From Synechococcus sp. (GTDB taxonomy: Bacteria > Cyanobacteriota > Cyanobacteriia > Thermostichales > PCC-7336), in contig JBFRWD010000145.1 in the NCBI GenBank assembly GCA_051439425.1, positions 1 to 13,063 of the forward strand: a stretch of DNA of 13,063 nt, given 5' to 3'. The stretch's first letter is position 1. Each line of letters opens with the position of its first letter. Below the pieces are notes generated by a model that had not been told where the DNA came from, searched no databases, and saw only the letters and a list, made by a program, of their open reading frames with translations. A program made the translations under genes and the position numbers. Below are positions 1-13,063 of this stretch, in pieces.

Positions 1-582
1 CGACTTCCGAGATTTTTCCAGCTCCTAGCCAGGTCGGGCAAAAAGGCATCGGGTCGCCTCTGTGCTAGCTGGCGATAAATCTCAACAGCTTCTTCAGTCG
101 CGCGTAACGCTTCTTCCTTTTGCTCCAAATTGCTTAGCCTATTTCCGAGATTGTTCAAGCTCAAAGCCAGGTCGGACAAAAAGGCATCGGGTCGACTCTG
201 GGCAAGCTGGCGAAAAATCTCAACGGCGTCTTCATTCGCGCGTAACGCCTCTTCCCGTCTTCCTAAATAGCTGAGCATGGGCCCGAGGTTGGTCAAGCCC
301 AAAGCCAGGTCGGACAAAAAGGTATTGGGTTGGCCCTGTGCTAACAGGCGATAAATCTCAACGGCTTCTTCCACCGCACATAACGCCTCTTCCCGTCGCC
401 CCAAATCGTTGAGCCTAACTCCGAGGTTGTTCAAGCTCCTAGCCAGTTGAGGCAAAAAGGCATCGGATCGAATCTGGGCCTGTTGGCGTCTGATCTCAAC
501 GGCTTCTTCCGCCGCACGTAGCGCCTCTTCCCGTCGACCCAAATAGCTGAGGCGTATGCTCTGGTTATGCACTAGCCTTGCT
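1..582 (-). repeat. Intragenic 138-bp (46-aa) tandem TPR-like repeats, 4 full units plus a partial fifth
   Basis: Anchor ggcatc/ggtatt recurs at 45, 183, 321 and 459 (period 138). Units: ARLVHNQSIRLSYLGRREEALRAAEEAVEIRRQQAQIRSDAFLPQL / ARSLNNLGVRLNDLGRREEALCAVEEAVEIYRLLAQGQPNTFLSDL / ALGLTNLGPMLSYLGRREEALRANEDAVEIFRQLAQSRPDAFLSDL / ALSLNNLGNRLSNLEQKEEALRATEEAVEIYRQLAQRRPDAFLPDL / ARSWKNLGSR... Confidence 0.92.
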
Positions 583-2351
583 CGTTCTTCCTGGTTCGCC
601 TCACTACTGTCTAATGATTGAGTAGTTGTAGTTTCAGCCAACTCTCTGAGGGCTAAAGTCTGCGCTGGTACCAGTTCCATTAAGGCCTTGGATAATTCTG
701 GGTTGGCATTGACGAGTAAATAATTGGCCAACACTCTACCAATGGGATCTCCACCTGCGAGGGCAACAAAAACTGCGGCAAAAGCCGAACGCTCTAAATC
801 CTCCTGAAACACCTCAGCCAGCCAGCTTTCAGTGTCTGGTTTACGCGCTGCAACCCGATTCAGAACCGTCAAACCATTAAACAATTCAGACGGTTCACTA
901 GGTCTTACCCAAGCCGTCCTCAATTCATCACTTTGTATGAAAGCTGTTTCAACCAGTCTTTCTCCCAACAGGTCAGGCTGTAGTGGCTCAATTCTCTCTG
1001 CAGTGCCATACAGTTCGGAGTAGACTCGAGCAAATTGCTTTAGTTGTAGGCGCGTTAATTCGGCTAAGTCGGGCTGCCATTGAAGGACTCCACGGAGACG
1101 TTGTCTATTGCAACCACCTGCTAAAACCAGCATGGTTGCTCCTTCCGCAAGCACATCTTGCTGAGCGAGTTCGGTTGATAAACCTAAATCTCGCGCCTTT
1201 TTCAGCCAGTATCCGCATTCCCGCTCTACACCAAAATCCAGCAATTTATCACGCTGTTCGATCTTCTTCCCCTCCATAGCAGCTAGGGCAGCTAAGTGAA
1301 TGAATAGAACGCGATTAAAGTCTTCATTTGCAAGAGAAGGAGCAAATGTTGGCCAAGGTTTTTCCAACAGTCGCGAATAAGTAAAAACTGCCTCTTGATA
1401 GACAGATTCGCGATCTGTCAGCTCGGATGCCAGCGGCAGCAGTCTTCGAGGCTCCGAATCCTTGCCAACCAACACCTCGTGATCGTGAGACTCCTTCAAC
1501 AGTTGCTGCCACCATTCCCCCTCAGATCTGGCTATCAACAACACCCGAACTGGCTGTCTAAAATCTTTTGTCTTGGCTGCCCGAAATAATTCCTTGACCT
1601 GCTCCCGCCGAGTCTCTGCATAGTCAACCACCAACAATGTTGGTCGCCGCAGCTTCATCAACCCATTGGCCGCTTCTGGATTGTTGAGATACCTTTCAAA
1701 TTCAATCCGATCTACAAACGCCGTCTCCCAATACTTCTGCCGCAAATGCTTGCAAAGCTCGATAGCAAATCGCGTCTTCCCCAATCCACCTGCCCCAGTC
1801 AGCAACCGAACCGCAAACAGGCTGTCCTCCTCACACCACTGCTCATATTCCTCCAACAACTCCTGTCGTCCAACAAACGGCACCACCCCATACTCCGCCC
1901 TCAGCAAAATACTGGGTCGTAAATCACCCTCAGGTGGTTCCCTCGTCGGCTCCTTCAACAGCCGATCCGTTACGTATTTTGGGGGCGCAAGACGATGTCT
2001 TTTGGCCTGTATTCCTTTCAGCTCCCCAGGTAAAGGGGTGCTATCCAGTAAATCAATCCTGAGAACATCGTTCCCTTTCTCAAGTGCTGCTAAATACTCC
2101 TGACGCACCCAGTCAGACTGCGCCGCATATTTAGACCAAATCAGCACTACACGATCAGCTGTCTTGACCTCTTTCTCTAGCCTTTCTCGCCAGTTTTCTC
2201 CACTTCGGATGCTTTTGTAATCTAGAAAGTAATTCTGATTTACTTCATCATAGTCATCGGCTTTTCTTGCAGCCCACTCTCTGTCTTCCCTCGCATAGCT
2301 AATGAAGACCTTATTCGGGGGATTCTTCTCAGGATCTTCGACAGCAGCCAT
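1..2351 (-). CDS. TIR domain - STAND-class P-loop NTPase - TPR repeat protein (NLR/Avs-like); 3' end lies beyond the window
   Basis: Manual translation from ATG at 2351 gives 783 codons with no stop before the window edge. TIR_2-like N-terminus: MAAVEDPEKNPPNKVFISYAREDREWA...YFLDYKSIRSGENWRERLEKEVKTADRVVLIWSKYAAQSDWVRQEY. NTPase: PFVGRQELL, Walker A GAGGLGKT (1773-1796), Walker B LLVVDYAE, sensor-like VRVLLIAR, then EPLQPDLLGE. TPR-like repeats follow from about 582 to the edge. Confidence 0.93.
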   Translation of the reverse strand, partial: MAAVEDPEKNPPNKVFISYAREDREWAARKADDYDEVNQNYFLDYKSIRSGENWRERLEKEVKTADRVVLIWSKYAAQSDWVRQEYLAALEKGNDVLRIDLLDSTPLPGELKGIQAKRHRLAPPKYVTDRLLKEPTREPPEGDLRPSILLRAEYGVVPFVGRQELLEEYEQWCEEDSLFAVRLLTGAGGLGKTRFAIELCKHLRQKYWETAFVDRIEFERYLNNPEAANGLMKLRRPTLLVVDYAETRREQVKELFRAAKTKDFRQPVRVLLIARSEGEWWQQLLKESHDHEVLVGKDSEPRRLLPLASELTDRESVYQEAVFTYSRLLEKPWPTFAPSLANEDFNRVLFIHLAALAAMEGKKIEQRDKLLDFGVERECGYWLKKARDLGLSTELAQQDVLAEGATMLVLAGGCNRQRLRGVLQWQPDLAELTRLQLKQFARVYSELYGTAERIEPLQPDLLGERLVETAFIQSDELRTAWVRPSEPSELFNGLTVLNRVAARKPDTESWLAEVFQEDLERSAFAAVFVALAGGDPIGRVLANYLLVNANPELSKALMELVPAQTLALRELAETTTTQSLDSSEANQEERARLVHNQSIRLSYLGRREEALRAAEEAVEIRRQQAQIRSDAFLPQLARSLNNLGVRLNDLGRREEALCAVEEAVEIYRLLAQGQPNTFLSDLALGLTNLGPMLSYLGRREEALRANEDAVEIFRQLAQSRPDAFLSDLALSLNNLGNRLSNLEQKEEALRATEEAVEIYRQLAQRRPDAFLPDLARSWKNLGS

Positions 2352-2384: not shown

Positions 2385-2691
2385 GCACCATCAAAAAACT
2401 CACCGGCAAACAGAGCAGTCTTTTCAATAAACGAGGTTCGCTGCGATACCTGACCCTACGCCCGAGTTTTTCCAACCGAGCTGCCGTCAGCAAACGCTCT
2501 ACTTGTTCTCATCGTGTTTCTGCGTAATCAATCTCAAAGAGCGGCTACTTACCTACATTTGCGAGATTGACGACGGGGATGTTGCTGTATCGGAAGATTT
2601 GTAGGGAAGCGGGCGTCGCTAAAGTGAACTGGATAAAATTTGCTGTGAAATTGTCAAGACAACTCGATCGGCCTAAATAAAGGAGGTGCTC

Positions 2692-3006
2692 GTGATTCTA
2701 ACCACCCTGGAAGGCGTTCCCGGCATGCAGATGCTCGAACATTACGGCTTGGTCAGCGGTAATACCGTGCGAGCCAAAAACGTGGGTAAGGATTTCTTAG
2801 CTGGTTTTAAAAACCTGGTGGGTGGAGAACTGAAAGCCTACACCGAGCTGTTGCGAGAGTCCCGTAATGAAGCCACCGATCGCATGATCGCTCAAGCGCA
2901 GCAAAAAGGGGCAAATGCAATTGTCAATATTCGATTTGCCACGTCCTCCATTGCGGCAGGGGCAGCAGAGCTGTACGTGTACGGCACTGCCGTTCGCGTT
3001 CAGTAG
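2692..3006 (+). CDS. YbjQ/UPF0145 family protein (putative heavy-metal-binding fold), soluble
   Basis: Family motifs GLVSGNTVRAKNVGKDFLAGFKNLVGGELKAYTELL and GANAIVNIRF...YGTAV. AGGAGG at 2681-2686 overlaps the track start (2686), so GTG at 2692 (MILTTLEGVPG, 104 aa) is the more likely start. Confidence 0.9.
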   Translation: MILTTLEGVPGMQMLEHYGLVSGNTVRAKNVGKDFLAGFKNLVGGELKAYTELLRESRNEATDRMIAQAQQKGANAIVNIRFATSSIAAGAAELYVYGTAVRVQ

Positions 3007-3051
3007 TATCAACGCTTTGTAATATCCGTGTCTAGGAGCTGAACAGTTGGT

Positions 3052-3510
3052 ATGGCAGAACTCATCATCTTCTTGATTTTGCTAGGGCTGGGATTTTTTG
3101 TCGGCAGCTACATCGAAAAGAAAAACTACGCTGATATTCGGGCACGAGAAGCGCAAACTCTACACGTACCAATCGTGACATTTGGAGCCAAACAACAGAT
3201 GCCTCCGAATTCGGAGGCTGCACTGTTTGTGGGAAGTGTGGTTGTATCTGCAGACTATTTCAAAATCATTGTGGCTGGACTGCGTAACCTGGTGGGTGGA
3301 CGCGTCACAGTGTACGAAAGTGTAGTCGATCGCGGCCGCCGAGAAGCCATGCTGCGTATGAAAGAGCAAGCCATTGCTTGGGGGGCGAGCCAGTTGGCGA
3401 ATGTTCGCATCGAAACATCTGATGTCGGCAGTAAAGCCAGCAACCAGGGCATCATTGCAATTGAGGTGACCGCTTACGGTACGGCACTGCGCGATCGGCA
3501 ATTACGTTAG
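3052..3510 (+). CDS. YbjQ/UPF0145 family protein with N-terminal transmembrane helix
   Basis: Hydrophobic N-terminus LIIFLILLGLGFFVG; YbjQ motifs GLRNLVGGRVTVYESVVDRGRREAMLRMKEQA and NVRIET...AYGTA; AGGAG upstream. Confidence 0.85.
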   Translation: MAELIIFLILLGLGFFVGSYIEKKNYADIRAREAQTLHVPIVTFGAKQQMPPNSEAALFVGSVVVSADYFKIIVAGLRNLVGGRVTVYESVVDRGRREAMLRMKEQAIAWGASQLANVRIETSDVGSKASNQGIIAIEVTAYGTALRDRQLR

Positions 3511-3570
3511 TCCGCGTCCCTGCGGTCGCCATGTTTTTTAGCGTTTGAAACGCCATGTTTCTCTCTTGCT

Positions 3571-4458
3571 ATGCCCTCCCCTAAATACGTTCCGAAACCC
3601 ATCACCGAAGAGGTGAATGTTACGCCAGTCCATCCTTTGGCTAATTTGGCCTATCTTGTGACGGTGATTGGCGTATGTTCGGTGGTGGCCTATCTTTTAT
3701 TGGGATGGATTTCTGATATTCTGGTCGGCCGGATTGAGCCGGAGACCGAAGTGGCGATTGCCCGCCGAATCAATCCGCAAGAGTTAGAGGATGAATCCAG
3801 TCGCGATCCTCGTGCTGTCTATTCTCTAGATTTGCTCAACTCCATTCGGGATACCGCTGTTGTGGATCGGGTTCCCCTGAGGCTCAATATTTACGAATCA
3901 GAAGTTCCCAATGCTGGGGTATTTCCCGGCGGGCATATCGTTGTTAGTCAAGGGCTGCTGGATACGGTTGAATCGGAAAATGCTCTGACTTTTGTGCTTG
4001 CGCATGAGTTAGGTCACTTCGAACATCGCGACCCGCTGGAACGATTGGGACGGAACTTAGTATTTCTGACCGTGGCCTCTGCGTTGGGCATAAATTCCGG
4101 ATCGAGCGGTAATGCGGTGTCGATTACCAGCGGACTGGCCGAACTGCATTACGGACGCGGTCAGGAGCTAGCCGCTGATGCATTTGCCTTGCAGAAAGTC
4201 GTCGAACATTACGGTCATGGTGGAGGTAGCCTGGAATTTTTTGAAGATATCTTGGCCTCGGGAGATGACGGGCGCTTCACCGATTACTTTTCCACCCATC
4301 CTATGACCCAAATTCGCATCGATCGCCTCTACGAACTGGCCGAACGCAATGGTTGGCCCATGCAGGGCGACGTAACCCCTTTTCCGGAAGAATTACGGTC
4401 TGCAAAGTATTTTGACGAAGAAAGGCCAGAAAAAGTGGGCAACGCACGAAATAAATAG
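3571..4458 (+). CDS. M48 family zinc metallopeptidase, single N-terminal TM anchor
   Basis: PNAGVFPGGHIVVSQGLL, HExxH motif VLAHELGH, third-ligand motif QELAAD, and C-terminal FSTHP...RI; TM segment near residues 24-47. Confidence 0.9.
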   Translation: MPSPKYVPKPITEEVNVTPVHPLANLAYLVTVIGVCSVVAYLLLGWISDILVGRIEPETEVAIARRINPQELEDESSRDPRAVYSLDLLNSIRDTAVVDRVPLRLNIYESEVPNAGVFPGGHIVVSQGLLDTVESENALTFVLAHELGHFEHRDPLERLGRNLVFLTVASALGINSGSSGNAVSITSGLAELHYGRGQELAADAFALQKVVEHYGHGGGSLEFFEDILASGDDGRFTDYFSTHPMTQIRIDRLYELAERNGWPMQGDVTPFPEELRSAKYFDEERPEKVGNARNK

Positions 4459-4515: not shown

Positions 4516-5151
4516 TTATCGAGTGCCGAACATGCGATCGCCCGCATCCCCCAGCCCTGGAATAATGTAGCCCCTTTCGTCTAAGCACTCGTCAATTGCT
4601 GCCGTAACCAGCGGCACATCAGGGTGTTCTGTTTGAAAATGCTCGATACCTTCAGGGGCTGCCAGCAGACACATAAACGTAATTGACCGTGGCCGAGCTT
4701 CTTTAAGGCGGTGAACCGCCGCTACAGCAGAGTTTCCCGTCGCGATCATCGGATCTACAACCACCATGTCCCGCTCGTCGGTATCGTGAGGAACTTTGAA
4801 ATAGTACTCGACTGCAACGCGGGTTTTGGGATCGCGATACAAGCCGATATGTCCCACTCGGGCTGATGGAATTAGCTTCAACATGCCATCTAACAGTCCT
4901 TGACCTGCCCGCATGATTGAAATCAAGACCAGCTTCTTGCCCACCAGCATAGGGGCATGGGTTGACGCAACTGGAGTTTGAATAGAGACCAGTTCGAGAG
5001 GGAGGTTTCGCGTCGCTTCGTAAGCCATCAACATGCCAATTTCATCCAGCAGCATCCGAAATTTAGCGGTGCTGGTGTCTTTTCGACGCATCAAGGTGAG
5101 CTTGTGCTGAATCAGAGGGTGCTCGATTTGGGTGATTGGGGCTGGCATCAT
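4516..5151 (-). CDS. upp: Uracil phosphoribosyltransferase (Urc6-like in this context)
   Basis: [27 protein letters not shown]-binding [13 protein letters not shown]-terminal [16 protein letters not shown]. Start abuts the upstream stop (TGA ATG ATG), so the true start may be 5148. Confidence 0.96.
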
Positions 5152-6441
5152 TCAAAAAACAGTACCGTCGCTTTGGATTGAGATCGGAGGACTGCCATCT
5201 GCCCGCTTTTGACGAGCAATCCGACGTCCTGCACTCCAGGTGCCCCCCTCCAAGACTCTAGCTAAAGGAAACTCGCTGGCTGTTAGACCCAGCCGATCGC
5301 GCAACTGCTCGGCCAGGCGATCGAGTAAAGCCAATGTCAAAGCCCTCCACTCGACAACGATCTCCGATCTGGGCAAGTGCGGCCGTCCCATTACACCTGC
5401 ATACTTGGGAATGAGGACTCCCATATCCACAAACAATCCACCGTTTCGATACTCGGCCAACCCGGTTAAGTGCTCCAAATCAGTGACTCTCCAACCCAAG
5501 TCCAGCAACGGTTCTACAAGCGAATAGGTCAACCACTGAGAAAGCTTGTGAAACGGCACCAGGGAGGCACCGGGTTCGTCTCCAGCCAGAGACTGATGGG
5601 GCCAAACGTCACCCAAGTTAACCCCTCCTAGCTGAATTCGCCCCGGCCAAATCGGTCCAAGTCCTTCCAATACAGAAAGCAGTATTTTTGTTGCCGAAAT
5701 CGTTGGTAAAGCTCCTGGTTTACCGCTTTCAAACATCTCGGATATCCAGTACTCCAACAAATTACCAGGACGGGTAGGAGCCCCCCCAAAGTACACTGGC
5801 TGCTCTGTAAGTACCTGCCCCAGTCGGTGCAGTAAATCCAAACGTCCCTTCAGACCCACAAGTGGATTGGTTGGCGACACCTGTAATCCAGCAGCCACTG
5901 AAGACTCTGTCAATTGCTGCAATCCCTCAGCATCTACTTGCATAGGGCACTGGGGATCGGAGGAGAAAAATCCATTTCCGAACATCACTAGACTCGCGAC
6001 CGCCAACCCTTCCGAGCGGGTTAGGGTGGCACCGCTAGCCGGATCGGTATACGACCACTGACTGCCGGCTCCCGCGTCTAGCAGAACGCTGACCACGGCT
6101 AAGTCCAGCTTTGCTTTCGCCCGTTCTTCTTTGGACGCGTTAGCCAGCATATTCTCCATGACCGATAATCGTGGGGTACCCCCGACGTCGAAGTGGCGCC
6201 AGCGACTGTGAAAGGGGACATTCAGTTGTGGATAGACGTCTGTCAAAGTGTCGAGAACGTAATCAACTGTTGGCGAGAGTCGGTCGAGATTACAGTCGAA
6301 ATGCTGTAGTTCCCCCTGAATGGCCTTGTTAAGTAAGGAATGACAACGATCGCGAATAGCTTGAGGCGTACGCAAATACACGATTGCCTCTGCTTCCGTG
6401 TGTATGTGCCTGCGCTCCATCCCCCAATCACTCACGTCCAC
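5152..6441 (-). CDS. DUF1688 / URC4 (Urg3) family uracil catabolism protein
   Basis: Motifs PFHSRWRHF, SVLLDAGAG, RSEGLAVAS, VPFHKLSQWLTYSL, LTGLAEYRNGGL, VVEWRALT, VLEGGTW and C-terminal SDGTVF. Start uncertain (GTG 6441, GTG 6435 or ATG 6420). Confidence 0.9.
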   Translation of the reverse strand: MDVSDWGMERRHIHTEAEAIVYLRTPQAIRDRCHSLLNKAIQGELQHFDCNLDRLSPTVDYVLDTLTDVYPQLNVPFHSRWRHFDVGGTPRLSVMENMLANASKEERAKAKLDLAVVSVLLDAGAGSQWSYTDPASGATLTRSEGLAVASLVMFGNGFFSSDPQCPMQVDAEGLQQLTESSVAAGLQVSPTNPLVGLKGRLDLLHRLGQVLTEQPVYFGGAPTRPGNLLEYWISEMFESGKPGALPTISATKILLSVLEGLGPIWPGRIQLGGVNLGDVWPHQSLAGDEPGASLVPFHKLSQWLTYSLVEPLLDLGWRVTDLEHLTGLAEYRNGGLFVDMGVLIPKYAGVMGRPHLPRSEIVVEWRALTLALLDRLAEQLRDRLGLTASEFPLARVLEGGTWSAGRRIARQKRADGSPPISIQSDGTVF

Positions 6442-6461
6442 TCACCTCAATATCATCCCCC

Positions 6462-7736
6462 TCAACTGTTCAAATCGCGACCGTAGGCTGTGGTCAAACT
6501 GGTCCGATCGGGAACGGCACCATCTGTGTAATAGCCGGCTGCTTTTTTGGCATCGATCTCTACTCGGGCATCAGCCGGAATCAGCTCTTCGGGAATTGAA
6601 ATACGTTCGCAAATCTCGATCCCCGACTGCGTGACCGCGTCGTACTTCAGATTGCTCATAGAGACAAATTTGTCGATGCGGGTAATGCCCAACCAGTGCA
6701 AGACGTCTGGCATAAGCTCTTGGAAACGCATATCCTGCACTCCCGCCACACATTCGGTTCGACTGAAGTAAGCGTCAGCGCGATCGCCCCCTGACTGCCG
6801 CTTGCGAGCGTTGTATACCAGGAACTTAGTCACTTCACCCAGTGCGCGACCTTCCTTGCGGGCGTAGACAATCACCCCAGCTCCCCCAGCCTGTGCTGTT
6901 TCGACCGCTACTTCGATACCGTGAACCAAGTAGGGGCGGCAGGTGCAAATATCGGAACCGAATACATCCGAACCATTGCATTCGTCATGAACCCGTACGG
7001 CAAGCTGTCGGTTTGGATCGGCAATTGCTTCAATATCCCCCAAGATGTAGACCGTGAGCCCTCCAATCGGCGGCAAAAACACGTCTAAGTCAGAGCGAGT
7101 GACCAGTTCGGGAAACATCCCTCCCGTTTGTTCGAACAGCGTGCGCCGTAACTCCCCTTCATCGACGTTAAATCGGCGAGCAATACCTGGTAGGTGCCAG
7201 ACTGGCTCGATCGCCGCTTTCGTTACCACTAACTCCCCACCATCCTTCAACACGCGGCCATCAATAGTCAGTCGGCCGCTGTCCACGGCTGCTTGTAGCT
7301 CCGGAATGTTGATGTGGGCCTTTGTTATGGCGATGGTGGGCCGAATGTCGTACCCGTCTGCGAGCAAGTCGGAAAATGATTCGCTCACTATTGCCCCGAA
7401 GGGGTCGAGGGAGACTATTTTGTCGGGATCGCCCCAACTGGGATGGGGACCGATTGGACTGGTGGGAGCAGTATTGGTCAGGTCGGCACGATGCTGAGAT
7501 TGGAGGGCTCCGCTGGCCACAGCCAATGCTCGATAGACGGCATACGAGCCGGAATGAGTACCCACAACATTACGATGGGCAGCATTGGTCAGGGTGGCAA
7601 TCGCCGGTCCCCGCTGCTTTGGATCGGGATGTCCCCAGCGAATCGGCATCGGCTTCGGTCCAAATCGCCCTGGATGAGAGGTAAGGACGATATGTTTGTG
7701 ACGGGGCGGTTCTTGGCGAGGTGATTCTGAGAACAT
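6462..7736 (-). CDS. GTP cyclohydrolase II-like protein with N-terminal GTP_CH_N domain (URC1/Urg1 family)
   Basis: N-domain HIVLTSHP...RNVVGTHSGSYAVYRALAVA; Zn-binding RVHDECNGSDVFGSDICTC; RKEGRALGEVTKFLVYNARKRQ; QDMRFQELMPD. ATG at 7736 (424 aa) is preferred over the track's TTG at 7907 because the extension lacks family motifs and overlaps a candidate promoter. Confidence 0.9.
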   Translation of the reverse strand: MFSESPRQEPPRHKHIVLTSHPGRFGPKPMPIRWGHPDPKQRGPAIATLTNAAHRNVVGTHSGSYAVYRALAVASGALQSQHRADLTNTAPTSPIGPHPSWGDPDKIVSLDPFGAIVSESFSDLLADGYDIRPTIAITKAHINIPELQAAVDSGRLTIDGRVLKDGGELVVTKAAIEPVWHLPGIARRFNVDEGELRRTLFEQTGGMFPELVTRSDLDVFLPPIGGLTVYILGDIEAIADPNRQLAVRVHDECNGSDVFGSDICTCRPYLVHGIEVAVETAQAGGAGVIVYARKEGRALGEVTKFLVYNARKRQSGGDRADAYFSRTECVAGVQDMRFQELMPDVLHWLGITRIDKFVSMSNLKYDAVTQSGIEICERISIPEELIPADARVEIDAKKAAGYYTDGAVPDRTSLTTAYGRDLNS

Positions 7737-7765
7737 GAGCCGCGAATCCAATCGGATAAGTCCAG

Positions 7766-7809
7766 AGTCTAACTCACGGGGAGACTTTACCGATGTAGTA
7801 TCAGATGCA
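7766..7809 (-). promoter_or_regulatory. Candidate NtcA-activated promoter for the URC cluster
   Basis: Plus strand TGTA-GTATCAGA-TGCA (7794-7809) is one mismatch from TGTA-N8-TACA. On the minus strand it is followed after 23 nt by TAGACT (7771-7766, TAn3T), 29 nt before ATG 7736. Confidence 0.5.
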
Positions 7810-7957
7810 CAGAAATCTCCTTGACTGATATCCAGGTTCGATACAGAAGAGTACCGGGGGTAGCATGTACATCTCCATGATTGATCGTAGGTAGGGGCCT
7901 GGTTCAAACCTAGGCAACAGTCAAACTGGTTTTCTCGGGCAAATCAGTAGGAATCTT

Positions 7958-10793: not shown

Positions 10794-11185
10794 GGGGCTG
10801 TAACGGTTTCGACGCGTTAGCGAAAGTTCCTTTGTGATGCTGGTCGGGATTGAGCTTATCCCGTTATCAACAGGCTCAAGCACATTAAGTGCCAACAACA
10901 TCGTTGCTTTTTCTCGTAAACCTGCTGCAGTAGCAGTAGCTTAAGTCGAACACTTAGAATTCGATCGAGGACTGATTCACGACTCCGCTACCCGAGTCAG
11001 TCAAAACCTCAGCGGATGCACCTAGTAGACTCCTTCAGTAGGCTGCTGGTTTAAGACTAAACTGGAGCATCCCACCGTTAGGGATAAGTGACGGTTCCCG
11101 TTCCGAGGATTAGAGGAACTAGGCCAGTGAATGAATGAAGGGCGACTACCTAGAGCGGACACGGGTTCGACTCCCGTCAGCTCCA
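10794..11185 (+). ncRNA. ssrA: tmRNA (one-piece), tag peptide ANNIVAFSRKPAAVAVA*
   Basis: 5' GGGGCTGTAACGGTTTCGAC; 3' T-arm ACGGGTTCGACTCCCGT then CAGCTCCA (G3-U70 alanine acceptor stem). Resume codon GCC at 10891 through TAA at 10942-10944. 3' CCA is not encoded. Confidence 0.97.
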
Positions 11186-11207
11186 TCCTATTTGATACTC
11201 AATCCAA

Positions 11208-11242: not shown

Positions 11243-11585
11243 GTCAAACTACAGCTCAAATAACTACGTCAAGAAGCGCAACGGGGTTATCACCCTCATC
11301 AATAAATGCTTGCGAAATTGTGTAGCATTTAGCATTTCAGCCATCCACAATCCCTACAGTGCAAAGGTCCTGACGTTCTAGTCGAGATGGCGGACTACCT
11401 GTAGCCTTGGCAAAGACTCTTGGATATAGTTGACTTCGCAAGGAGCTTAACAATTGTTTTATGCATAGGGTGACACCTCTTAAGTGTCCAGTCCCTACCT
11501 TCAAAGTTAGCTAGCCGGTACCTTGACAGCGTCTCAGTTACGTTTGCAGTTAACTGCTGACAAAATTTTGCTGAGGGAGTCACTG

Positions 11586-13063
11586 ATGGTGCGGAGTTTT
11601 AACCAATTCGGGGGAATTAGCGATCGGATATCTGCAACCGCTCTTCTCAGGCTAACGGCCAAACTCTTGCCACTATTCTCCGCAGTCACAGCTGCTGGCC
11701 TGCTGGCTGCTGGTCCTGTCCTTGCTCAAACCACCTCTACACCTGAGCAAGAAGAGGCAGCCACCGCCGATTCCCTAAGGGTGAGCACCTCCACGGAAGC
11801 TCTACGCATCAATCCACAATTCCGCGTCGGCGCCAACACCGAGTCAGGAGGGATCCCGGCCTCTCTCAATGCGTTTGATGGGTTCTTCCCCGTTCTGCAA
11901 ACTCCGGGCACATCTATCACTTACCTCAACCCGCGCCTTAACATCGATTTCGATGACGAGAATCGTTTAGGGGGATCGCTCTTATTCGGTCACCGCAGCT
12001 ACAGCCCAGATCACCAGCGAATTTTGGGTGGATACTTGGGTTTAGATGTCAGGGATACAGGCGAGAATGTATTTCCACAAATTGGTTTCGGGTTTGAACG
12101 GCTAGGTAAGCACTGGGATATTCGTGCCAACGGTTACGTCCCGGTGGGAGATACTCGCCAACGCATAGATCGCGAAGTGTTTGCCTCCAGCCAGACATCC
12201 ATCGCTATCGGAGAACCGACGTTTTCTGGCAATCTCCTGTCCAGTAATGTCACCAGTACCACCACAGATACTCGCACCCAGATTGATCGCCTAGAAGCTG
12301 CACTGGGTGGATTTGATGTGGAGGCGGGGACGCGGCTAGTCAGCTGGAACGAGCACGGCGAAATGCGCTTGTACGGTGGACTCTACTATCTGGGAGGCCA
12401 CGATGTTAGCAGTATTGGTGGACGAGGTCGGCTAGAAATTGTCCCCACCGAATCCATCCGCTTGATGGCTGGCATCCAGGGGGATCCGGTCTTTGACGTG
12501 CGGGGATTTTTCTCGGCGAGTTTTCTGTTGCCGACTCCAAAAGCTTTACAAACAGACACCGATCCCGATGAAAAGGCGGAGGCGATCGCCACAGTGGGGG
12601 AAACCGTTACCCGTTTGGCGGATCCGGTGGCGCGGGACTTCAATGTAGTGGTGGAGGAACAGCAAGAGGTTGATACTACCGTTGCCACTACTTCCATTTC
12701 AGAAGAGTTTGTCTTCCGTAATCCCGAGACCGGCGCTGCTTGGCGTTTTACTCACGTTACTTCGGGGGGCAATAGCGACGGAACCTTCGAGGACCCATTC
12801 GGAACGCTAGAAGAAGCATTGGTCAGCGGACTGCAGCAGGATGGCAACGATGTTGTTTACGTTCGGCTGGGAGACGAAGCGAGTCCAGGCATCGACCTCA
12901 TAGCTGCAGGTGTGCAAAACATCCAAATTTTGTCAGATGGTCCCTTGCAAACTCTGCCGATACAGCCATTTAATGGGGAAAGTACCGTTGAAATCCCATT
13001 CTCCAACCGTGGCCAGTTGACCCAAGTGACTGCTCCGGTGGTACTCAACAACAACATCACAAT
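11586..13063 (+). CDS. Inverse autotransporter-like (intimin/invasin-type beta-barrel) surface protein with probable beta-helix passenger; 3' end lies beyond the window
   Basis: ATG 11586 with GAGGGAG upstream; 492 codons with no stop. Signal peptide ends ...GLLAAGPVLA|QTT. Barrel motifs GGSLLFGHRSY, LGGYLGLDVRDT, QIGFGFERLGKHWDIRANGYVPVG, EAALGGFDVEAG and RLADPVARDFNVVV. Passenger starts with DGTFEDPFGTLEEAL...DVVYV. Confidence 0.82.
   Translation, partial: MVRSFNQFGGISDRISATALLRLTAKLLPLFSAVTAAGLLAAGPVLAQTTSTPEQEEAATADSLRVSTSTEALRINPQFRVGANTESGGIPASLNAFDGFFPVLQTPGTSITYLNPRLNIDFDDENRLGGSLLFGHRSYSPDHQRILGGYLGLDVRDTGENVFPQIGFGFERLGKHWDIRANGYVPVGDTRQRIDREVFASSQTSIAIGEPTFSGNLLSSNVTSTTTDTRTQIDRLEAALGGFDVEAGTRLVSWNEHGEMRLYGGLYYLGGHDVSSIGGRGRLEIVPTESIRLMAGIQGDPVFDVRGFFSASFLLPTPKALQTDTDPDEKAEAIATVGETVTRLADPVARDFNVVVEEQQEVDTTVATTSISEEFVFRNPETGAAWRFTHVTSGGNSDGTFEDPFGTLEEALVSGLQQDGNDVVYVRLGDEASPGIDLIAAGVQNIQILSDGPLQTLPIQPFNGESTVEIPFSNRGQLTQVTAPVVLNNNIT

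What the first reader, a model, noticed from the sequence alone, without database searches (positions are those of the whole stretch)
1..2351. Hidden TIR-STAND-TPR (NLR/Avs-like) gene: candidate single-protein immune receptor
Seen: an open frame of at least 783 aa missed by the ORF track, with a TIR domain retaining the Glu at the catalytic position (SDWVRQE, codon 2097-2099), intact Walker A GAGGLGKT and Walker B LLVVDYAE, a helical linker and a TPR array. Established: effector-STAND-TPR is the architecture of bacterial Avs and NLR-like antiphage proteins, and TIR domains with this Glu cleave NAD+ on oligomerisation. Inference: the protein senses a ligand via TPRs and triggers NAD+ depletion or signalling. 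I cannot assign the NTPase subtype (LLRAEYGVVPFVGR, VVDYAE, LQPDLLGE) to a characterised Avs type, so it may be an untested class.
Basis: partly seen in the sequence, partly recalled or inferred. Interest (0 to 1): 0.8.

Follow-up and report, generated by a model that had tools for sequence, protein, structure and literature searches.

The report
TIR-STAND-TPR receptor gene, cut by assembly
A cyanobacterial gene encodes a one-protein alarm of the plant-NLR type (an NAD-cleaving TIR head, an ATP-driven switch and a repeat sensor); it is real and looks intact but belongs to an already catalogued, still untested family.

Summary
On the minus strand, 2351 to 3, an open frame of 783 aa (from ATG) carries a TIR domain with the WxxxE motif (Glu87, codon 2097-2099), a P-loop NTPase with intact Walker A/B, a helical arm and four 46-residue TPR units. 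It is not frameshifted. It runs off the contig, because the window is a whole 13-kb contig that the assembler broke inside the repeats.

A 50%-identical paralog is cut the same way. Two other contigs start with the matching C-terminal TPR tails; synteny pairs one tail with the paralog, so the other should belong to this gene (at least about 977 aa).

A high-confidence model (pLDDT 95) matches NADase-type TIRs and the NOD modules of Avs5, NRC, NLRC4, Apaf-1 and MalT.

The NTPase subtype can be named. Its relatives (665 clusters at E<=1e-30) are the family modelled by Pfam nSTAND_NTPase5, with swapped heads (TIR, CHAT, trypsin, nucleosidase). This protein itself scores below the curated cut-off.

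No Avs model matches, and the neighbours are housekeeping genes. The gene is patchy among relatives.

Verdict: a new member of a known kind. It is probably a ligand-triggered NAD+-cleaving cell-death or defence sensor. No tested member of the family was found in the searches made.

The parts
3..2351 (-). Open reading frame of the TIR-STAND-TPR protein: 783 aa from ATG 2351, 3'-open at the contig end
2007..2309 (-). TIR domain (residues 17-117)
   Evidence: Pfam TIR_2 E 8e-19. The model matches TIR structures at Z 14-16, rmsd 2.5-2.9 A over 110-115 residues.
2097..2111 (-). WxxxE motif: Trp83...Glu87, the catalytic-position Glu
   Evidence: It aligns to the DW...E stretch of AbTir chains 7uwg/8g83 and to PdTIR 3h16. 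AbTir W204/E208 form the WxxxE motif and E208A is inactive (passages). Glu87 is invariant in 20 of 20 TIR-bearing homologs.
1866..1907 (-). Conserved pre-NTPase motif LLRAEYGVVPFVGR (residues 151-164)
   Evidence: Nearly invariant columns L151, R153, E155, V158, V159, F161, R164
918..1910 (-). NOD module (nucleotide-binding, helical and winged-helix domains), about residues 150-480
   Evidence: The model matches EfAvs5 9jap (Z 14.3), NRC1 8bv0 (Z 14.2), NRC2, NLRC4, Apaf-1 and MalT. Pfam nSTAND_NTPase5 covers residues 165-284 at 22.9 bits, below its cut-off.
1773..1796 (-). Walker A GAGGLGKT (Lys194)
   Evidence: G191, G193 and K194 invariant
1614..1637 (-). Walker B LLVVDYAE (Asp245, Glu248)
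   Evidence: D245, A247 and E248 invariant in A1
960..983 (-). LQPDLLGE motif after the winged-helix hairpin. By position it resembles the MHD motif of NB-ARC proteins (inference).
   Evidence: L459, P461 and E466 invariant; the secondary-structure order comes from the model
546..917 (-). All-helical arm between the NOD and the repeats (about residues 481-604)
   Evidence: Helices in the model, pLDDT above 90
3..545 (-). TPR array: four 46-residue units (138 bp), broken off by the contig end
2352..2685 (.). Divergent intergenic region between this gene and the YbjQ-family gene. No sigma-70-like promoter or terminator match was found.

Best explanation
The gene encodes a single-chain NLR-like sensor of the STAND class. 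In the resting state the protein is a closed monomer. The C-terminal TPR solenoid, built of unusually self-similar 46-residue units, binds a foreign or danger-associated protein. This releases the NOD module, which exchanges or binds ATP through Lys194 and Asp245/Glu248 and oligomerises. Oligomerisation brings the N-terminal TIR domains together, so that their composite active sites around Trp83/Glu87 cleave NAD+. The outcome is growth arrest or death of the invaded cell, either by NAD+ depletion or through an ADPR-derived signal. What is shown here: the domains, the motifs and their conservation, the fold, and the family relations with swapped effector heads. What is inferred: ligand binding by the TPRs, nucleotide-driven oligomerisation, NADase activity, and a role in conflict with phages or other invaders. 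The gene is incomplete only in the assembly. Its C-terminus most likely lies at the start of contig C148, ending in a conserved 55-residue cap.
For: TIR. Pfam TIR_2 scores 68.7 bits. The AlphaFold2 model of residues 3-600 has pLDDT 95.1 and pTM 0.92. Its TIR part matches SPARTA TIR-APAZ, SARM1, SpbK and ThsB at Z 12-16. The WxxxE motif aligns with AbTir W204/E208, and Glu87 is invariant in 20 of 20 homologs. A two-copy TIR complex model scored 0.57 against a best control of 0.00. That mark was reached by 20 of 30 solved homodimers and 1 of 23 solved monomers. The runs agreed in at least 71% of contacts and partner pLDDT was at least 75. Because TIR dimers are solved, this pass may reflect likeness only.

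NOD. Walker A and B are intact and invariant. The fold matches EfAvs5, NRC1/2, NLRC4, Apaf-1, MalT and the STAND-TPR protein 6mfv at Z 12-14.

Family. 13,776 cluster representatives match at E<=1e-3 and 665 at E<=1e-30. Of 60 homologs scanned, 38 match nSTAND_NTPase5. Their heads vary: TIR_2 13, CHAT 5, Trypsin_2 5, PNP_UDP_1 3, Metallophos 1, EAD1 1. This is the effector-swapping pattern of conflict systems.

Sensor. The 46-aa units are 78-80% identical at the DNA level. Variability concentrates at unit positions 16, 17, 19 and 20, the x positions in NLG-xx-L-xx-LG.

Distribution. A match was found in 4 of 41 genomes (own included), all in one family. One same-genus closed genome holds only a remnant, and another that is 99% complete holds none.

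Intactness. There is no stop in 785 codons. Tails with the family's C-terminal cap lie on C148 and C41. Synteny in G003 joins C41 to the paralog on C150. The rare NLEQKEEAL unit variant is shared by the last C145 unit and a C148 unit, which are 89% identical.
Against: No activity of any kind was measured. The protein's own score against nSTAND_NTPase5 (22.9 bits) is below the curated 34 bits. PADLOC and NCBIfam match only the TIR part, well under the NCBIfam cut-offs, and no Avs/NLR model matches. The flanks of all four contigs hold housekeeping, transport and regulator genes and no defence island. Around 12 related loci, only 10 of 110 neighbour ORFs hit a PADLOC model at E<=1e-10. Most of those hits were generic helicase or ATPase domains, and there was no control. 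The link between C145 and C148 rests on elimination and a shared unit variant. There are no exact contig overlaps, and the flanks of C145 and C148 are not adjacent in relatives. Relatives show decay: a remnant in G002 and a stop inside the G003 ortholog of the paralog. The family may therefore be dispensable or often inactive.
Confidence: 0.68

Rival explanations
1. The protein has the same architecture, but the TIR works as a signal generator (a cADPR isomer or another ADPR conjugate). A separately encoded effector would read that signal, as in Thoeris, and NAD+ would not be depleted directly.
For: The best TIR-level profile hits are Thoeris ThsB/ThcB4 models, and ThsB 6lhy matches the fold at Z 12.3. 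Bacterial and plant TIRs are reported to make cADPR isomers (abstracts of PMC10022894 and 10.1101/2022.05.07.491051).
Against: No partner gene is adjacent on any of the four contig ends. The Thoeris model scores are far below cut-off (46.6 against 220 bits). In this family the head is exchanged for direct killers such as CHAT and trypsin-like proteases, which suggests the head is itself the executioner.
Confidence: 0.15
2. The protein is a STAND switch for a non-antiviral purpose: self/non-self recognition, developmental or stress-induced cell death, or regulation within a cyanobacterial community. The TPRs would then read a host or kin protein.
For: Neighbours in this genome are housekeeping genes. 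The family is concentrated in Actinomycetota, Acidobacteriota, cyanobacteria and Chromatiales. NLR-like proteins of multicellular bacteria have been linked in print to programmed cell death and non-self recognition (passages). In the 2026 STAND survey only 198 of 589 clades were classed as defence-associated (section read).
Against: The conserved NADase motif and the protease and nucleosidase head-swaps fit a killing output. Patchy presence and decay among close relatives are more typical of conflict genes than of core regulators. This rival differs from the best explanation mainly in the trigger, not in the mechanism.
Confidence: 0.12
3. The gene is a decaying or inactive copy and the open frame is a leftover. 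The unseen 3' part would be broken, or the two 'tails' would belong to other genes.
For: The 3' end is not assembled. A remnant exists in G002, and the paralog's ortholog in G003 carries an internal stop. No RNA run that holds this DNA was listed, which is not evidence either way.
Against: 785 codons are open, with all catalytic motifs invariant. tblastn finds exactly two heads and two tails in the genome. Both tails are in frame and end with the family's cap.
Confidence: 0.05

Closest known systems
STAND NTPases modelled by Pfam nSTAND_NTPase5 (PF25199), the 'novel STAND' conflict-system NTPases
   Same: It is the only NTPase-specific Pfam model that matches (residues 165-284). 38 of 60 close homologs match it at E<=1e-5, and the paralog scores 31.5 bits. 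The same head-swapping and C-terminal TPR_10/TPR_12 arrays are seen.
   Different: This protein scores 22.9 bits, below the curated 34 bits. No solved structure or tested member of the family was found (for structures; paper searches).
Avs / AVAST antiviral STANDs, for example EfAvs5 (SIR2-STAND, PDB 9jap)
   Same: The layout is effector, NOD, helical-repeat sensor, with an NAD-consuming head. The EfAvs5 NOD is among the top structural matches (Z 14.3, rmsd 4.1 A over 201 residues; the top NOD rows lie within about 1 Z of one another).
   Different: The head is TIR, not SIR2. No sequence-level match to any PADLOC Avs model was found. Here the sensor is a regular 46-residue TPR array. Avs8 and Avs10-24 (PMC13581612, sections read) could not be compared because their tables were not readable.
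Plant TIR-NLRs (RPP1, PDB 7crc/7dfv)
   Same: The order is TIR, NOD, repeat, and oligomerisation switches on the TIR NADase. RPP1 is among the top Foldseek hits (E 2e-7).
   Different: The NOD does not match Pfam NB-ARC, the repeats are TPR rather than LRR, and the sequence identity is 12-13%.
E. coli TIR-II antiphage system (TIR + TPR, about 30% of homologs with an ATPase domain; PMC11350192)
   Same: TIR plus TPR in one protein or split over two. It has shown antiphage activity that needs the TIR active-site residues (passages).
   Different: The PDB holds an 824-aa TIR-TPR protein (9m0n) that matches only the TIR, weakly (E 0.55).
NLR-like proteins of filamentous bacteria and fungi with highly internally conserved TPR/WD repeats
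   Same: These are all-in-one TIR2/CHAT-NOD-TPR proteins in cyanobacteria and actinobacteria. Their repeat units are 80-90% identical and are thought to diversify by unit reshuffling (passages of 10.1101/2020.01.06.895854). Here the units are 78-80% identical in DNA.
   Different: That work defined NLRs by NB-ARC or NACHT domains, whereas this NOD is of the nSTAND5 type. Diversifying selection was not tested here.

Membership tests
TIR domain, NADase type | Profile match above the curated cut-off (Pfam TIR_2) | tested here: met
   68.7 bits against 28, residues 17-117
TIR domain, NADase type | TIR (flavodoxin-like) fold | tested here: met
   The model (pLDDT 95) matches SPARTA TIR-APAZ 8spo at Z 15.8 (rmsd 2.6 A, 114 aligned), SARM1 9mw2 at Z 14.7 and SpbK 9phb at Z 13.5
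TIR domain, NADase type | Catalytic Glu in the WxxxE motif | tested here: met
   W83/E87 align with the W...E of AbTir. AbTir W204/E208 is named as the motif and E208A is inactive. E87 is invariant in 20 of 20 homologs.
TIR domain, NADase type | Self-association of TIR domains | tested here: met
   Model only: score 0.57, best control 0.00. The mark was reached by 20 of 30 solved homodimers and 1 of 23 monomers; contacts agreed at 71% or more; pLDDT was at least 75. The pass may reflect likeness to solved TIR dimers.
TIR domain, NADase type | NAD+ cleavage | not testable with these tools
   Needs an enzyme assay
STAND NTPase superfamily | Walker A GxxxxGK[ST] and Walker B hhhhD | tested here: met
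   GAGGLGKT at 188-195 and LLVVDYAE at 241-248; K194 and D245 invariant
STAND NTPase superfamily | NBD, helical domain and winged helix in one NOD module | tested here: met
   278-319 residues align to NRC1 (Z 14.2), NRC2 (Z 13.8), NLRC4 (Z 13.4), Apaf-1 (Z 13.1) and MalT (Z 12.4). AAA+ unfoldases score nearly as high over the NBD alone.
STAND NTPase superfamily | C-terminal repeat sensor and N-terminal effector | tested here: met
   TIR_2 at the N-terminus; TPR_10/TPR_12 at the C-terminus
STAND NTPase superfamily | Ligand- and nucleotide-dependent oligomerisation | not testable with these tools
   Needs biochemistry or cryo-EM
Pfam nSTAND_NTPase5 (PF25199) | Score at or above the gathering cut-off of 34 bits | tested here: not met
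   22.9 bits, E 8e-5. It is therefore filed as a relative of this family and not as a Pfam member. 38 of 60 homologs match at E<=1e-5.
Avs (AVAST) types in PADLOC-DB v2.0.0 | Match to an Avs NTPase or sensor model | tested here: not met
   There were only four hits, all to TIR parts (ThsB1, PDC-S66, SAVED_TIR, bSEFIR), at E<=0.01. That this release holds Avs1-5 and bNACHT models is recalled, not checked.
Avs6-24 (2025-2026 families) | Membership of the named sensor or NTPase clades | not testable with these tools
   The clade tables of PMC13581612 were too large to read, and four homolog accessions and two family terms gave no hit in the 7 files held
Thoeris ThsB / ThcB4 | Equivalog score and a partner ThsA-type gene | tested here: not met
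   NCBIfam ThcB4 scores 46.6 bits against a cut-off of 220, over the TIR only. No partner is among the neighbours.
NB-ARC / NACHT NLRs | Pfam NB-ARC or NACHT match | tested here: not met
   Neither is listed at E<=0.01

The most novel reading that the evidence does not exclude
The two paralogous TIR-STAND-TPR genes form a small variable receptor set. Their near-identical 46-residue TPR units would be exchanged within and between the two genes, which changes the few exposed positions (NLG-xx-L-xx-LG) and the unit number, so that new invader proteins can be recognised. This would be a bacterial counterpart of repeat reshuffling in fungal NLRs, in a STAND family of which I found no tested member. 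Hints: units of the two genes are on average 75% identical while their TIR-NOD parts are 50% identical. The assembler broke both genes in the repeats. Orthologs differ in the number of TPR units detected by a unit profile, from 2 to 8.
Probability: 0.2. Interest if true: 0.6.

Novelty: new member of a known kind. Interest (0 to 1): 0.3.

Why it matters
TIR-NOD-repeat receptors are the core of plant immunity, and bacterial STANDs are now known to sense many phage proteins. However, the tested ones come almost entirely from enterobacteria and use other NTPase clades. This gene is a clean, probably intact example from a marine cyanobacterium of a very large family (665 clusters at E<=1e-30). I found no solved structure and no tested member of that family. 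If it works as proposed, it would extend TIR-NADase pattern recognition to cyanobacteria and give a regular, engineerable TPR sensor to study. As a genome feature it is ordinary for this kind of bacterium.

Tried and rejected
Joining contigs by exact end overlap: no overlap of 15 nt or more was found.

Bridging the gap with public reads: the one run that holds the stretch (share 0.98, probably the source sample) is kept as contigs, and none spans window position 1. The 2,447-nt contig that touches window 6-56 with 2 mismatches carries, just before it, the 30 letters that precede a repeat copy on C148. It is therefore a cross-match of repeat units, not a bridge. No RNA holder was listed.

Synteny to link C145 with C148: their flanks lie far apart in G001, G002, G003 and G005.

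Profile search of the PDB with alignment A2: swamped by TPR proteins. The NOD alone gave nothing meaningful by sequence.

PDB 9m0n (an 824-aa TIR-TPR protein): it matches the TIR only, weakly, and no paper was found for 9M0N or 9UMD.

A search for 'nSTAND5' as a word found only unrelated papers.

Earlier findings of this scan: none is like this sequence.

Promoter and terminator scan of 2250-2750: nothing found.

Defence-island test around relatives: inconclusive. I used 12 of the 78 loci. 16 loci with full flanks were picked, and 4 of them were dropped to stay within the size limit.

Repeat-unit identity comparison as a test of gene conversion: only 7 full units come from this genome, and one ortholog (P0007) is as similar as the paralog, so it is a hint only.

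A second structure prediction (full length or NOD alone) was not run.
Full report
WHAT IS THERE. The window is a whole contig (G000:C145, 13,063 bases) of a 4.8-Mb assembly in 182 contigs. On the minus strand an open frame runs from TTG 2357 (ATG at 2351) to window base 3 without a stop. It is 785 codons long, or 783 from the ATG. SDWVRQE is residues 81-87, with Glu87 at codon 2097-2099. Walker A GAGGLGKT is at 1773-1796 and Walker B LLVVDYAE at 1614-1637. LLRAEYGVVPFVGR is at 1866-1907 and LQPDLLGE at 960-983. Pfam finds TIR_2 (residues 17-117, 68.7 bits against a cut-off of 28) and TPR_10/TPR_12. The only NTPase-specific match is nSTAND_NTPase5 (residues 165-284), at 22.9 bits against a cut-off of 34.

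WHY IT ENDS AT BASE 3. The last 545 bases are a tandem array with a 138-bp period (4 copies, 78% matches), which is four TPR units of 46 residues. tblastn of the protein against its own genome hits four contigs only. These are C145; a 50%-identical paralog on C150, which also runs off its contig inside the repeats (702 aa); and two contig ends, C148 and C41. C148 and C41 begin in frame with the same kind of units and finish with a roughly 55-residue non-TPR tail and a stop (192 and 163 aa). That tail is the C-terminal cap of complete homologs such as P0003, P0007, P0008 and P0014. So the genome has two heads and two tails, separated by assembly breaks.

In relative G003 the ortholog of the C150 gene lies between DNA collinear with C41 on one side and with C150 on the other. 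C41 therefore carries the tail of the paralog, and by elimination C148 carries the tail of the window's gene. A rare unit variant (NLEQKEEAL...) supports this. It occurs in the last C145 unit and in one C148 unit, and these are the most similar pair of units (89%). Direct proof is lacking. There are no exact end overlaps. No bridging contig exists in the one public run that holds this DNA. The C145 and C148 flanks are not neighbours in four relatives. The full protein should have at least about 977 residues. The intact ortholog of the paralog has 1,008.

THE DOMAINS. I built an alignment of 90 homologs. With it, AlphaFold2 models residues 3-600 at mean pLDDT 95.1 and pTM 0.92.

Residues 12-126 of the model superpose on TIR domains. 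Examples are SPARTA TIR-APAZ 8spo (Z 15.8, rmsd 2.6 A, 114 residues), SARM1 (Z 14.2-14.7), B. subtilis SpbK (Z 13.5) and ThsB (Z 12.3). By sequence the TIR aligns with AbTir and PdTIR so that Trp83 and Glu87 fall on their W...E. In AbTir these are W204 and E208 of the 'WxxxE' motif, and E208A abolishes NAD+ hydrolysis (passages of 10.1101/2023.05.19.541320). Glu87 is invariant and Trp83 nearly so in 20 TIR-bearing homologs.

A two-copy complex model of residues 10-135 passed its controls, with a score of 0.57 against a best control of 0.00. The mark was reached by 20 of 30 solved homodimers and 1 of 23 solved monomers. The runs agreed in at least 71% of contacts, and partner pLDDT was at least 75. 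The interface is symmetric, through residues 27-41, 69-71, 100-102 and 119-122. TIR dimers are solved, so the pass may show likeness only.

Residues about 125-560 of the model match NOD modules. These are EfAvs5 9jap (Z 14.3 over 201 residues), NRC1 8bv0 (Z 14.2 over 278), NRC2, NLRC4, Apaf-1, MalT and the archaeal STAND-TPR protein 6mfv (Z 12-14). Foldseek adds SAMD9 and the plant TIR-NLR RPP1. These Z scores are tied, so no solved clade is clearly the nearest. By sequence, no solved structure matches the NOD.

Invariant residues beyond Walker A and B include R271, R277 (at the end of the strand after Walker B, where STANDs carry sensor 1), W282 and L459/P461/E466. The LQPDLLGE motif follows the winged-helix hairpin in the model. 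This is where NB-ARC proteins have MHD. That equivalence is my inference, not a residue-level alignment.

THE FAMILY. A full HMMER scan with residues 3-600 finds 13,776 cluster representatives at E<=1e-3, 3,637 at E<=1e-10 and 665 at E<=1e-30. The closest are TIR proteins of cyanobacterial MAGs (67% identity). Next come Anaerolineales, Longimicrobium, Gemmatimonadota, Streptomyces and Thiodictyon. Of 60 homologs scanned one by one, 38 match nSTAND_NTPase5 at E<=1e-5. No other NTPase model does better (AAA_16: 5). Their N-terminal heads differ: TIR_2 13, CHAT 5, Trypsin_2 5, PNP_UDP_1 3, Metallophos 1, EAD1 1. Glycosyltransferase heads appear among the word-indexed hits.

This protein is a sub-threshold, TIR-bearing relative of it. 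78 related loci in species genomes are mostly from Actinomycetota and Acidobacteriota, with some from cyanobacteria, Chromatiales and others.

The same genome also encodes an EAD4-NACHT/nSTAND5-HEAT protein (965 aa, C156) and an AAA_16/ORC-like-TrmB-TPR protein (926 aa, C75). This is the repertoire described for 'multicellular' bacteria (passages).

CONTEXT AND DISTRIBUTION. Upstream and divergent lie two YbjQ-family genes and an M48 peptidase. Next comes a UPRTase/DUF1688/GTP-cyclohydrolase-II-like cluster, then a GHL10 hydrolase, an alpha/beta hydrolase and the tmRNA gene. The other three contig ends carry regulators, efflux and ABC transport genes. None is a known defence gene.

Among 41 genomes (own included), 4 have a match at E<=1e-10, all in the same family. 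A closed genome of the same genus has only a TIR-plus-NOD remnant elsewhere on its chromosome, and another same-genus genome, 99% complete, has none. In G003 the paralog's ortholog is split by a stop after residue 776, while another MAG holds the intact 1,008-aa form that is 100% identical over those 776 residues.

Around 12 related loci, 10 of 110 neighbour ORFs hit a PADLOC model at E<=1e-10. These were mostly generic helicase or ATPase models, and PDC-S03 lay next to the gene in two loci. There was no control, so the result is inconclusive.

THE SENSOR. Units of 46 residues read DAFLPDLARSLNNLG-xx-L-xx-LGRREEALRAAEEAVEIYRQLAESRP. In 61 full units from 16 proteins, the most variable positions include 16, 17, 19 and 20, which flank the invariant Leu of the first helix. 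The scaffold positions are nearly fixed. Within this genome, units of the two paralogs are on average 75% identical, while their TIR-NOD parts are 50% identical. This fits what has been written about bacterial and fungal NLR repeats of high internal conservation. The sample is small, though, and one ortholog from another genome is as similar. I therefore treat repeat exchange as a hint.

MECHANISM. The most likely course is as follows. A closed monomer binds its target on the TPR solenoid. The NOD opens, takes up ATP and oligomerises. The clustered TIR domains then cleave NAD+, which stops or kills the cell.

Shown here: the domains, motifs, conservation, fold, head-swapping and patchy distribution. 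Inferred: every biochemical step, from plant TIR-NLR resistosomes, Avs proteins and TIR NADases (established knowledge; PMC13581612 sections read; PMC11350192 passages).

Rivals are a signalling rather than depleting TIR, a non-antiviral trigger, or a decaying gene.

COMPARISON AND NOVELTY. The protein works like an Avs or a plant TIR-NLR, but it is a member of neither. No PADLOC Avs model matches, and Pfam NB-ARC and NACHT do not match. Avs6-24 and the 589-clade STAND tree of 2026 could not be checked, because the clade tables were unreadable here. Those supplements may already place and score this clade.

A TIR+TPR(+ATPase) system, TIR-II, is a proven antiphage defence in E. coli. Its relation to this protein was not tested.

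The paper searches found no experimental work on an nSTAND5-type TIR protein. Subscription journals are not covered by these searches.

I rate it a new member of a known kind. It is real and well preserved, and it could be a useful cyanobacterial test case, but a specialist would not find it surprising.

Noticed in passing
window 10794-11188 (+): A tmRNA (ssrA) gene: Rfam 103.7 bits, and ARAGORN reads the tag peptide ANNIVAFSRKPAAVAVA. The open frame after it (11523-13061+, 513 aa, running off the contig) has no Pfam match at E<=0.001 and only chance-level hits at E<=1. tmRNA genes are frequent integration sites (recalled), so this could be the edge of an island.
   Followed up: partly
window 4516-7907 (-): Three adjacent genes encode a uracil phosphoribosyltransferase, DUF1688, and a GTP-cyclohydrolase-II-like protein with a GTP_CH_N domain. 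From memory, this trio is the core of the URC uracil-degradation pathway known from yeasts. This was not checked.
   Followed up: no
window 2686-4458 (+): Two tandem YbjQ-family genes (106 and 152 aa) are followed by an M48 peptidase gene, divergent from the TIR gene.
   Followed up: no
G000:C150:1-2108 (-) with G000:C41:17725-18216 (-): A paralog of the window's gene (702 aa head, 50% identical) is also cut by the assembly in its TPR array. Synteny in G003 shows that its 163-aa tail lies at the end of contig C41.
   Followed up: yes
L017 5857-8883 (G003:C24): The ortholog of the paralog is split by a stop after residue 776 into ORFs of 776 and 225 aa. Another MAG holds an uninterrupted 1,008-aa form that is identical over the first 776 residues. 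This could be a real nonsense mutation or an assembly error in the repeats.
   Followed up: partly
L016 8531-8892 (G002:C1, about 4.6525-4.6529 Mb): In a closed genome of the same genus, only a remnant of the gene remains: a TIR piece joined to a short NOD piece, in a different genomic context.
   Followed up: partly
G000:C156:17142-20036 (-) and G000:C75:22172-24949 (-): The same genome holds other NLR-like proteins. One is EAD4-NACHT/nSTAND5-HEAT (965 aa) and the other is AAA_16/ORC-CDC6-like-TrmB-TPR (926 aa). C146 and C70 carry two similar frames of about 1,700 aa with weak P-loop hits. They were not analysed.
   Followed up: partly
L033 4171-5016 and L063 9847-10422: In 2 of the 12 related loci examined, a gene matching the PADLOC candidate family PDC-S03 lies next to the STAND gene (E 6e-15 and 4e-47). 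No such gene is in the window.
   Followed up: no
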